From the IMG/VR virus record IMGVR_UViG_3300021426_000040: 37,706 nt of DNA; one strand, 5' to 3'. Numbering within the stretch: the stretch's first letter is position 1; each line of letters starts with the position of its first letter. Both the position numbers and the translations under genes were made by a program. The stretch is from a virus. Shown in pieces: positions 15,625-17,293 of the stretch. Below the pieces are notes generated by a model that saw only the letters and a list, made by a program, of their open reading frames with translations, was not told the DNA's origin and searched no databases.

Positions 15625-16050
15625 ATGAAGCTGACTGCAAAGCAAGAAAGGTTCGTACAGGAGTATCTCATTGACCTTAACGCGACACAGGCAGCCATCC
15701 GTGCCGGATACTCCAGGAAGACGGCAGGCGTCATTGGTGTCGAGAACTTAAAAAAACCTTATATCAGGGAAGCAATTGAAGAGAAGCTCAAGCAGATCGA
15801 CGATGAGAAGACAGCCGATGCCAAGGAGATACGCGAGTTCTGGACGAGAGTCATGAGAGGCGACGAGAAGGAGACCGTGCTCCGCTATGACGGTGAAGGT
15901 CACCAGGTCGAGACGGAGATAAGCGTCTCCATGAAGGACCGCATGAAGGCCTCGGAGATGCTTGGCAAGTCGTTCGCAATGTTCACGGACAAGGTTGATC
16001 TCACAGCAACGGTTCCCGTATTTGAAGGCGAGGATGATCTAGACGATTAA
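15625..16050 (+). CDS. terS: Terminase small subunit (Terminase_2 / P27 family)
   Basis: MKLTAKQERFVQEYLIDLNATQAAIRAGYSRKTAGVIGVENLKKPYIREAI. SD GAAGGGGAG before the ATG at 15625. Confidence 0.85.
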   Translation: MKLTAKQERFVQEYLIDLNATQAAIRAGYSRKTAGVIGVENLKKPYIREAIEEKLKQIDDEKTADAKEIREFWTRVMRGDEKETVLRYDGEGHQVETEISVSMKDRMKASEMLGKSFAMFTDKVDLTATVPVFEGEDDLDD

Positions 16051-17293
16051 GGAAAAGAAGATCTATCTTCCGGACATCATTGGCAGGGGATACGGCACAT
16101 TCTGGAAGTACAGGGGGCGCTATCTCGTCGTCAAAGGCTCACGTGCGTCCAAGAAGTCAAAGACGACAGCGCTGCGGTTCATCTACAACCTCATGAAGTA
16201 TGACAGGTCCAACCTTCTTGTCATAAGAAAGACATACCGTACGCTTAAGGATTCATGCTGGACTGACCTCAAGTGGGCAGCGCAGCGACTTGATGTGGCT
16301 GACAAATGGGAATTCAAGCTAAGCCCGCTTGAAGCCACCTACCTTCCAACTGGACAAAAGATACTGTTCAGGGGGCTTGATGATCCGCTGAAGGTGACAT
16401 CAATAACGGTAGAGTACGGATATCTGTGCTGGGCGTGGCTTGAGGAAGCATATGAAGTGATGGATGAATCGGACTTCGATGTCATTGACGAATCAATCCG
16501 TGGCGAGATTCCATCACATCTTTGGAAGCAGTGGACAATCACGTTCAACCCATGGAATGACAGGCACTGGCTTAAGAAGCGTTTCTTTGATGCCCATGAC
16601 CCAGATATCCTGGCACTGACAACCAACTACAAGTGCAATGAGTGGCTCGACAAGAACGACCTTCAGCTGTTCGAGAGAATGAGGAAGAACAACCCGAGAC
16701 GTTACCAGGTTGCCGGACTAGGGAACTGGGGAGTTGTTGACGGCCTTGTCTACGAGAACTGGGAAGAACGAGAATTTGGACTTGATAGCGTCACGAACTG
16801 CGTGACGGTATGCGGACTGGACTTTGGATATACCAATGACCCGACCGCTTTTTTTATTGGCTTCTATGACGAAGCGAACAAGAGACTGTATGTATGGGAT
16901 GAGTTCTATGAGAAAGGCCAGTCAAACCGTGACATCTATGAAAGGATTTCCTCAATGGGGTATGCAAAGGAAAGAATCATAGCTGATTCAGCTGAGCCTA
17001 AGTCAATTGACGAGCTGAGGGATTTCGGACTGCGCGTCAGGGGGGCAAAGAAAGGCCGCGATTCAATAAACAACGGCATCCAGTTCATACAGGACATGAA
17101 GTTAATAATACATCCAAGATGTGTGAATTTTCTTACGGAGATATCAAACTACGTATGGGACAAGGACAGGTTCGGGAAGACACTGAACATGCCAGTTGAC
17201 GACTTCAACCATCTTATGGATGCAATGAGATATGCAGTCGAACCGCTGCATAGAACAGGACTTAAATACAACAGACTAGGAGGTGGATTGTAA
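16046..17293 (+). CDS. terL: Terminase large subunit (PBSX/Terminase_3-like). Its N-terminus extends 49 codons upstream of the first canonical start, with a probable ATT start.
   Basis: The frame is open from 16043, after the TAG at 16040-16042. It reads (I)KEKKIYLPDIIGRGYGTFWKYRGRYLVVKGSRASKKSKTTALRFIYNLMKYD.., which includes the Walker A segment. There is no in-frame ATG, GTG or TTG before 16193. Confidence 0.75.
   Translation: MKEKKIYLPDIIGRGYGTFWKYRGRYLVVKGSRASKKSKTTALRFIYNLMKYDRSNLLVIRKTYRTLKDSCWTDLKWAAQRLDVADKWEFKLSPLEATYLPTGQKILFRGLDDPLKVTSITVEYGYLCWAWLEEAYEVMDESDFDVIDESIRGEIPSHLWKQWTITFNPWNDRHWLKKRFFDAHDPDILALTTNYKCNEWLDKNDLQLFERMRKNNPRRYQVAGLGNWGVVDGLVYENWEEREFGLDSVTNCVTVCGLDFGYTNDPTAFFIGFYDEANKRLYVWDEFYEKGQSNRDIYERISSMGYAKERIIADSAEPKSIDELRDFGLRVRGAKKGRDSINNGIQFIQDMKLIIHPRCVNFLTEISNYVWDKDRFGKTLNMPVDDFNHLMDAMRYAVEPLHRTGLKYNRLGGGL

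What the first reader, a model, noticed from the sequence alone, without database searches (positions are those of the whole stretch)
16040..16195. TerL ATPase N-terminus has no canonical start codon; ATT overlapping the terS stop is the likely initiator
Seen: the track starts TerL at ATG 16193. The same frame is open back to the TAG at 16040-16042 and encodes TIKEKKIYLPDIIGRGYGTFWKYRGRYLVVKGSRASKKSKTTALRFIYNL. This is the conserved N-terminal Walker A segment of PBSX-type large terminases. Among these 49 codons there is no ATG, GTG or TTG. ATT at 16046-16048 shares one base with the terS TAA (gATTAAg), and GAGGA lies 11 nt upstream. ATC at 16061 is a second option. Established: AUU can initiate translation (for example E. 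coli infC), and termination-reinitiation tolerates weak starts. Inference: terL translation starts non-canonically and is coupled to, and throttled by, terS translation.
Basis: partly seen in the sequence, partly recalled or inferred. Interest (0 to 1): 0.6.

Follow-up and report, generated by a model that had tools for sequence, protein, structure and literature searches.

The report
Terminase gene lacking a normal start
The DNA-packaging motor gene of this gut-bacterial prophage has lost its ATG start through a single base change, yet it is widespread, still under selection and sits behind an unusually strong ribosome-binding site, so it is probably translated at a low level from a weak start codon (ACG or the adjacent ATT).

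Summary
The terL frame is open from TAG 16040-42 to ATG 16193 (50 codons, not 49). It has no ATG, GTG or TTG, yet it encodes the start of the ATPase domain, including Walker A.

It is not a read error. The identical junction occurs in an independent sheep-rumen contig (L132). Gene calls starting at the same internal Met sit on about 245 public contigs; one identical sequence accounts for 223 of them.

The T>C change is silent in terS. A second group (L050 type) also has ACG there but starts at an ATG where the window has ATC 16061.

The gene looks alive:
- All 6 differences from L132 in codons 1-213 are synonymous.
- The ORF is intact and no large phage ORF in the window looks broken.
- The extended Shine-Dalgarno at 16024-39 (-18.0 kcal/mol) is stronger than at any canonical start in 131 homologous junctions.

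Best reading (about 0.65): low-level initiation at ACG 16043 or ATT 16046, probably helped by terS translation. RefSeq's 415-aa model fits an ATT start. Main rival (about 0.2): a recently silenced prophage gene.

This is a new member of a known kind. The scan has noted start-less terL genes on other DNA.

The parts
15625..16050 (+). terS (small terminase), ending GAC GAT TAA
   Evidence: Pfam Terminase_2, E 1.2e-37. Stop TAA at 16048-50.
16024..16039 (+). Extended Shine-Dalgarno GAAGG-C-GAGG-A-TGATC inside the last codons of terS
   Evidence: Duplex with the 16S tail GAUCACCUCCUUUCU is -18.0 kcal/mol, close to the strongest of 23 phage genes tested. It is stronger than at any canonical start in 131 homologous junctions. 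The tail sequence was confirmed in the relative Absicoccus porci.
16040..16042 (+). In-frame TAG that closes the terL frame upstream, so no start further 5' is possible
16043..16045 (+). ACG, at the position of the ATG start of the close relative L001 (ancestral start); candidate near-cognate initiator
   Evidence: L001 reads TAG ATG ATT AAA. P0002, P0004 and P0149 begin MIK. T>C at 16044 is GAT>GAC (Asp) in terS. There are 9 nt between the GAGG core and this codon.
16046..16048 (+). ATT, candidate initiator overlapping the terS stop by one base
   Evidence: The RefSeq model WP_338156302.1 (P0137, 415 aa) begins MKEKK, with its M at this codon.
16061..16063 (+). ATC, homologous to the ATG start of the 411/412-aa relatives (MYLPD); a weaker candidate
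   Evidence: L050, L051, L130, L131, L133 and L158 read ACG ATT AAG AAG AAG GAA ATG. Its own SD AAGGA gives only -5.1 kcal/mol.
16133..16159 (+). Walker A P-loop KGSRASKKS (deviant: Lys where the second Gly normally sits)
   Evidence: Aligned to Sf6 gp2 KGGRGSGKS. Invariant in the 120 best homologues.
16193..16195 (+). First canonical start (Met51), used by gene callers; it lies after Walker A
   Evidence: The 366-aa calls P0141 (identical to the window) and P0122 start here.
16043..17293 (+). Full terL reading frame (416 codons plus stop), PBSX-type large terminase
   Evidence: Terminase_3 E 4.6e-52, Terminase_3C E 1.3e-25 and TIGR01547 E 1.3e-50.
17293..18681 (+). SPP1-type portal gene; its ATG overlaps the terL stop
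   Evidence: Pfam SPP1_portal, E 2e-114.

Best explanation
terL is a complete, functional PBSX-type large terminase gene. Its ancestral ATG (16043-45, overlapping the end of terS) became ACG through a T>C change that is silent in terS. No ATG, GTG or TTG is left before Walker A. Translation most likely starts with fMet at ACG 16043 or the adjacent ATT 16046. The ribosome is placed there by an unusually strong, extended Shine-Dalgarno sequence (16024-39) lying in the last codons of terS. Ribosomes terminating at TAA 16048-50 probably help. The yield should be a few percent to about 10% of an AUG start, which keeps TerL scarce relative to TerS. Shown: the missing canonical start, the homology of the upstream codons, the ancestral ATG position, the spread of the allele, synonymous-only divergence and the SD strength. 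Inferred: which codon is used, the coupling to terS, and the low yield.
For: (1) The ATPase domain and Walker A lie upstream of Met51. (2) L001 has ATG exactly where the window has ACG, and P0002, P0004 and P0149 begin MIK. (3) It is not an error. L132, from a sheep-rumen metagenome (AUXO; PMC4158751), has the identical junction. 366-aa gene calls starting at the same Met sit on about 245 contigs, 223 of them carrying one sequence, P0122. (4) Purifying selection: the window and L132 differ at 6 sites in codons 1-213, all synonymous, two of them upstream of Met51. P = 9e-5, or 1e-3 with a transitions-only null. (5) The ORF is intact and no large phage ORF in the window looks broken. (6) The SD duplex of -18.0 kcal/mol exceeds the best SD of every canonical start in 131 homologous junctions (minimum -17.8, median -10.9). 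The same site is -11.4 in L001, which has the ATG. (7) In S. aureus, natural AUU/AUA starts carry extended SDs and give about 10% of AUG (PMC13009471). In E. coli, AUU/AUC/AUA give 1-2% of AUG, and ACG initiates with Met (bioRxiv 10.1101/063800). (8) RefSeq models for Sharpea azabuensis begin at codons that are ATT in the window (P0137 and P0138, same contig). (9) A variant on 18 contigs (P0139) has Met where the window has Arg15 (AGG). This most simply reflects AGG>ATG creating a new start, as expected if expression is under selection.
Against: There is no direct evidence of translation or of virion production. DNA of the start-less allele was seen only in the window and in one 1.7-kb contig; the rest rests on gene-call lengths. 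The 6:0 result mostly covers codons 51-213; codons 1-50 alone (2:0) have no statistical power. The divergence could predate the ATG loss if the junction spread by recombination. L132's second half is a different allele, and the contig could be an assembly chimera. A frameshift-split terL (P0123 + P0124) exists on 8-11 contigs, so some copies are decaying. Wide occurrence could reflect a clonal host rather than an active phage. The host's own 16S tail was not available; a relative's was used.
Confidence: 0.65

Rival explanations
1. Recent inactivation. The T>C change killed terL expression, and the prophage is a packaging-defective passenger inherited vertically in a clonal host. The ORF looks intact only because too little time has passed.
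For: Relatives use ATG here or at codon 7, and the window has neither. A frameshift-split variant sits on 8-11 contigs. Diversity inside the start-less group is low, 0-5 aa for most members. I recall that Sharpea azabuensis isolates are reported to be very similar to one another.
Against: All 6 differences from L132 are synonymous, where roughly 4 of 6 would be non-synonymous without constraint. The SD is the strongest in the family. Mosaic variants (P0145, P0146, P0003) keep an open frame. No other phage gene looks broken. A variant with a probable new ATG at codon 15 exists (P0139).
Confidence: 0.2
2. Initiation occurs further downstream at another near-cognate codon: ATC 16061 (homologous to the MYLPD start), or ATC 16076 / ATT 16079 (NCBI's older 404-aa model).
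For: ATC 16061 aligns with the ATG of the 411-aa group. P0138 begins at the codon that is ATT 16079 in the window. All of these still include Walker A.
Against: Their SDs are weak (-5.1, -7.0 and -4.5 kcal/mol) and poorly spaced. Starts at 16076/16079 would remove the conserved YLPD motif.
Confidence: 0.08
3. Sequencing or assembly error in this record destroyed an ATG.
For: A single base separates ACG from ATG.
Against: The identical junction is in the independent contig L132. Gene calls on about 245 contigs start at the same internal Met. The L050-type relatives also carry ACG.
Confidence: 0.01
4. A +1 ribosomal frameshift at the end of terS makes a TerS-TerL fusion, so that no terL start is needed.
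For: terL lies in the +1 frame relative to terS. A strong SD-like sequence sits just upstream, as in prfB.
Against: The TAG at 16040-42 confines the shift to GAC GAT TAA, where tRNA-Asp cannot re-pair in the +1 frame. L001 has a separate ATG at this spot. No significant RNA structure is predicted (z -0.09).
Confidence: 0.02

Closest known systems
AUU/AUA-initiated bacterial genes: E. coli infC and pcnB; S. aureus cvfC1, ccpN and infC (PMC13009471)
   Same: There is no canonical start. A near-cognate codon sits behind a strong or extended SD. The expected effect is lower protein yield.
   Different: Here the codon identity is unresolved (ACG or ATT). The state is young: relatives at 87-89% protein identity still have ATG. 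No initiation-site mapping exists, and no IF3 feedback logic is implied.
PBSX-family large terminases (TIGR01547; Pfam Terminase_3 + Terminase_3C), e.g. B. subtilis PBSX XtmB and SPP1 G2P (nuclease domain PDB 2WBN)
   Same: It has the same two-domain architecture and the same terS-terL-portal gene order. The terL start overlaps the end of terS.
   Different: This allele lacks ATG/GTG/TTG. Its clade has a deviant Walker A, KGSRASKKS.
Translationally coupled overlapping gene pairs (e.g. M13 gene V / gene VII; PMC2268962)
   Same: The downstream start lies within a few bases of the upstream stop, and the SD is embedded in the upstream gene.
   Different: Coupling is untested here. The known systems re-initiate at canonical codons and remain subject to IF3 scrutiny.
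Other start-less terL genes noted by this scan (e1-5125055 with ATA; e1-3297887; weak-start prophage family e1-5884294)
   Same: TerL or other low-copy phage proteins appear to start at weak codons.
   Different: They are on different DNA and in different terminase clades. I did not check those notes.

Membership tests
PBSX-family phage terminase large subunit (TIGR01547) | N-terminal ATPase domain (Terminase_3) with Walker A and Walker B | tested here: met
   PF04466 E 4.6e-52 over residues 26-227, and TIGR01547 at 173 bits against a cutoff of 105. Walker A and Walker B align to Sf6 gp2. Walker A is deviant (KGSRASKKS).
PBSX-family phage terminase large subunit (TIGR01547) | C-terminal RNase H-like nuclease domain | tested here: met
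   PF17288 E 1.3e-25. The SPP1 G2P nuclease 2WBN matches at E 2.5e-22.
PBSX-family phage terminase large subunit (TIGR01547) | Position between terS and the portal gene in a tailed-phage head module | tested here: met
   Terminase_2 lies upstream and SPP1_portal downstream. The full phage gene set is present.
Genes initiated at a near-cognate codon (infC/pcnB/cvfC1 type) | No ATG/GTG/TTG upstream of conserved N-terminal sequence | tested here: met
Genes initiated at a near-cognate codon (infC/pcnB/cvfC1 type) | Near-cognate codon at working distance from a strong SD | tested here: met
   The extended SD gives -18.0 kcal/mol. ACG is 9 nt and ATT 12 nt from the GAGG core.
Genes initiated at a near-cognate codon (infC/pcnB/cvfC1 type) | Non-canonical start conserved across diverged lineages | tested here: inconclusive
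   The junction is identical in L132 and implied on about 245 contigs. Relatives at 87-89% protein identity have ATG at codon 1 or codon 7.
Genes initiated at a near-cognate codon (infC/pcnB/cvfC1 type) | Experimentally mapped initiation site or protein N-terminus | not testable with these tools
   This needs proteomics or retapamulin-type ribosome profiling.
Translationally coupled overlapping genes | Start within a few bases of the upstream stop, and no promoter of its own | tested here: met
   ATT overlaps TAA by 1 nt, and ACG begins 5 nt before it. No plus-strand promoter-like site lies between terS and terL.
Translationally coupled overlapping genes | Downstream translation depends on upstream translation | not testable with these tools
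   No occluding RNA structure is predicted (z -0.09). A reporter with a premature terS stop is needed.
Pseudogene in a decaying prophage | Frameshifts or stops, relaxed selection, and other broken phage genes | tested here: not met
   The 416-codon frame is intact. Synonymous to non-synonymous differences are 6:0. No large phage ORF looks broken. A split variant does exist on other contigs.

The most novel reading that the evidence does not exclude
A widespread rumen and gut prophage lineage (host probably Sharpea azabuensis) makes its essential packaging ATPase only from a near-cognate start (ACG or AUU). The loss of the AUG was offset by the strongest extended Shine-Dalgarno sequence in the whole terminase clade. 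That would be a natural, datable case of start-codon loss compensated by SD strengthening. It would also be a reason why gene finders truncate TerL in hundreds of assemblies.
Probability: 0.55. Interest if true: 0.45.

Novelty: new member of a known kind. Interest (0 to 1): 0.4.

Why it matters
Gene finders cut this terminase at Met51 on about 245 public contigs. The resulting protein lacks Walker A and could be taken for a defective prophage gene. If the weak start is real, it gives a clean natural pair for measuring how much terminase a phage needs: ATG relatives against the ACG/ATT allele, which has a strengthened SD. It would also show how SD strength trades off against start-codon strength in Bacillota. 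Together with other start-less terL genes noted by this scan, it hints that weak starts on terL may recur. The kind of mechanism is already known, so the finding is of moderate interest.

Tried and rejected
The spread of the allele therefore rests on gene-call lengths plus L132.
- The window's own assembly is not held. The nearest virus record, G001, has no terL.
- Scans of 400 genomes of the order and 400 of the family of Absicoccus porci found nothing closer than 87%.
- An exact-junction search in IMG/VR found nothing.
- A phage GenBank search gave only distant hits.
- No significant RNA structure is predicted at the junction.
- A sliding DNA-identity comparison with L001 and the L050 type showed only 60-85% identity, too diverged to locate a recombination point at the junction.
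- Literature searches for terminase with a non-canonical start, and for Sharpea prophages, gave nothing relevant.
- Rejected: sequencing error, +1 frameshift fusion, and a functional TerL starting at 16193 (it would lack Walker A).
- Structure prediction was not run. The Pfam, TIGRFAM and Sf6 alignments already place Walker A.

Full report
**Observation.** The window carries a complete siphovirus-type prophage. It runs from the integrase (2-1165, minus strand) through a CI-like repressor, anti-repressor, helicase, primase, terS, terL, portal, MuF-like head protein, scaffold, capsid and tail genes to the holin and endolysin.

terS (15625-16050, Terminase_2, E 1.2e-37) ends GAC GAT TAA. None of them is ATG, GTG or TTG.

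These codons are coding sequence:
- Pfam Terminase_3 matches from residue 26, and TIGR01547 from residue 27.
- Walker A of Sf6 gp2 (KGGRGSGKS) aligns to KGSRASKKS at 16133-59.
- A protein starting at 16193 would therefore lack the P-loop. By established knowledge of terminase ATPases, the P-loop is indispensable.

**What homologues show.** The 120 best homologues (70-99% identity) share the N-terminal pattern (I/V)YLPD(I/V)VG(K/R)GY..FW..GRY.V.KGSRASKKSKT. The closest full-length relatives begin MIKEKKIYLPD (P0002), MIKRKK (P0004, and L001 from Absicoccus porci) or MIKKKE (P0149).

| Source | Sequence at the junction | Start used |
|---|---|---|
| L001 | TAG ATG ATT AAA ... | ATG at codon 1 |
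| Window | TAG ACG ATT AAG ... | none canonical |
| L050, L051, L130, L131, L133, L158 (411/412-aa proteins) | ACG ATT AAG AAG AAG GAA ATG | ATG at codon 7 (window ATC 16061) |

(DNA.)

The T>C change at 16044 is synonymous in terS (GAT>GAC). The window has the ACG of one lineage and the Ile-7 of the other, so it has neither start.

Across 189 loci (133 distinct junctions), only the window, L132 and L049 lack a canonical start before Walker A.

**Not an artefact, and widespread.** L132 is a 1756-bp contig (AUXO010245962.1) from the New Zealand sheep-rumen metagenome of Shi et al. 2014 (PMC4158751). Its junction is identical: the 22 nt upstream, then ACG, ATT and ATC.

In the 15-billion-protein collection, gene calls that begin at the same internal Met (366 aa) include:
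- P0141, identical to the window (4 contigs);
- P0122, with 3 aa differences (223 contigs, longest 164 kb);
- eleven further variants.

Together these cover about 245 contigs.

Where a synonymous change happens to create GTG or TTG, callers start there: P0003 (387 aa) and P0142 (373 aa). NCBI carries two models from one Sharpea azabuensis contig. WP_338156302.1 (415 aa) begins MKEKK and WP_277661606.1 (404 aa) begins MGRGYG. Both begin at codons that are ATT in the window, which is most simply explained by PGAP choosing ATT starts. I could not see that DNA. The host is therefore probably Sharpea azabuensis.

**Is the gene alive?**
1. Codons 1-213 of the window and L132 differ at six sites, all synonymous transitions: Ser33, Leu44, Lys88, Tyr127, Ala131 and Pro187. 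Two of them lie upstream of Met51. If changes fell at random, only 21% of all single changes (32% of transitions) would be synonymous. That gives P = 9e-5, or 1e-3 with a transitions-only null.
2. From codon 214 on, L132 carries a different nuclease-domain allele of the P0151-53 type, and its frame stays open for all 429 codons. P0145, P0146 and P0003 carry a P0002-like block at residues 245-326, yet keep the start-less N-terminus. The allele has therefore been through recombination without breaking. L132 is a single short contig, though, and could be an assembly chimera.
3. The sequence GAAGG-C-GAGG-A-TGATC (16024-39) can pair over 14 bp with the 16S tail GAUCACCUCCUUUCU. I confirmed that tail in the relative Absicoccus porci. 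The predicted duplex energy is -18.0 kcal/mol. That is close to the strongest of 23 phage genes tested (Tal is -18.4). It is stronger than the best SD of any canonical start in 131 homologous junctions (minimum -17.8, median -10.9). The same site is -11.4 in L001, which has the ATG, and -12.6 in L050. The gain over L001 comes from a synonymous GAA>GAG change in terS.
4. A variant on 18 contigs (P0139, 402 aa) has Met where the window has Arg15 (AGG). This is most simply AGG>ATG creating a new canonical start.

Against this, a frameshift-split version (P0124 of 225 aa plus P0123 of 152 aa) occurs on 8-11 contigs, so some copies are decaying.

**Mechanism.** There is no promoter-like site on the plus strand between terS and terL, and no significant RNA structure at the junction (z -0.09). 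The two genes are therefore most likely read from one mRNA.

The GAGG core ends 9 nt before ACG. That is the spacing this phage uses at terS and the portal gene. It ends 12 nt before ATT. Geometry thus favours ACG, the old ATG site. Codon identity favours AUU:
- In E. coli, AUU/AUC/AUA/CUG give 1-2% of AUG and the other codons 0.1-1%. ACG still yields a Met N-terminus (bioRxiv 10.1101/063800).
- In S. aureus, natural AUU/AUA starts behind extended SDs give about 10% of AUG (PMC13009471).

ATC 16061 has only a weak SD (-5.1). I cannot separate ACG from ATT computationally.

Ribosomes ending terS at TAA 16048-50 are on the spot and may re-initiate. Re-initiation in E. coli, however, needs fMet-tRNA and IF2, is subject to IF3, and is helped by an SD (PMC2268962). 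'Reinitiation tolerates weak starts' is therefore not an established rule. A low TerL yield is plausible, because few terminase molecules are needed per capsid; this is inference.

**Comparison and novelty.** The protein is an ordinary member of the PBSX terminase family; all defining features tested were met. The initiation mode belongs to a known kind: infC and pcnB in E. coli, and cvfC1, ccpN and infC in S. aureus. I found no paper on a terminase with such a start.

The scan has noted start-less terL genes on other DNA (e1-5125055, e1-3297887) and a Bacillales prophage family with weak starts on low-copy proteins (e1-5884294). I did not test those notes.

**Verdict.** It is a new member of a known kind, of moderate interest.

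| Explanation | Confidence |
|---|---|
| Functional near-cognate start at 16043 or 16046 | about 0.65 |
| Recent inactivation | about 0.2 |
| Another downstream near-cognate codon | about 0.08 |
| +1 frameshift fusion | about 0.02 |
| Sequencing error | about 0.01 |

Noticed in passing
L050:2997-3020 (also L051, L130, L131, L133, L158): The 411/412-aa relatives also have ACG ATT at the old start. Their ATG at codon 7 has only a weak, tightly spaced SD (-5.1 kcal/mol), while a stronger SD (-12.6) sits before the ACG. Their true start may deserve the same question.
   Followed up: partly
L049:2976-3100: A second terminase of this clade has no ATG/GTG/TTG before Walker A (RGDRIVTKISVAQVVGKNY...). 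An ATC follows a GAGGGGA motif. The contig is binned as a Methanomicrobiales MAG, probably mis-binned.
   Followed up: no
window 16133-16159: The whole clade (all 120 best hits) has a deviant Walker A, KGSRASKKS. A Lys replaces the second conserved Gly of GxxxxGK[ST].
   Followed up: partly
proteins P0123 and P0124 (no DNA seen): A split terL (225 aa plus 152 aa, with the break near window residue 270) occurs on 8-11 contigs of up to 136 kb. Some copies of this prophage carry a frameshifted terminase.
   Followed up: partly
protein P0139 (corresponds to window 16085-16087): A variant on 18 contigs starts at a Met replacing Arg15, probably AGG>ATG. It is a possible compensatory new start that would drop the conserved YLPDIIG motif.
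   Followed up: no
L132:1313-1624: In the sheep-rumen contig, terL is followed by a 103-codon ORF with an HELGH motif and no Pfam match, not by a portal gene.
   Followed up: partly
window 21613-22317: The listed TTG start of the scaffold gene has almost no SD (-2.2 kcal/mol). The real start is probably elsewhere.
   Followed up: no
window 17293: The portal ATG overlaps the terL stop by one base, and GGAGGTG lies 9 nt upstream (-16.2 kcal/mol). The head-module genes look serially coupled.
   Followed up: no
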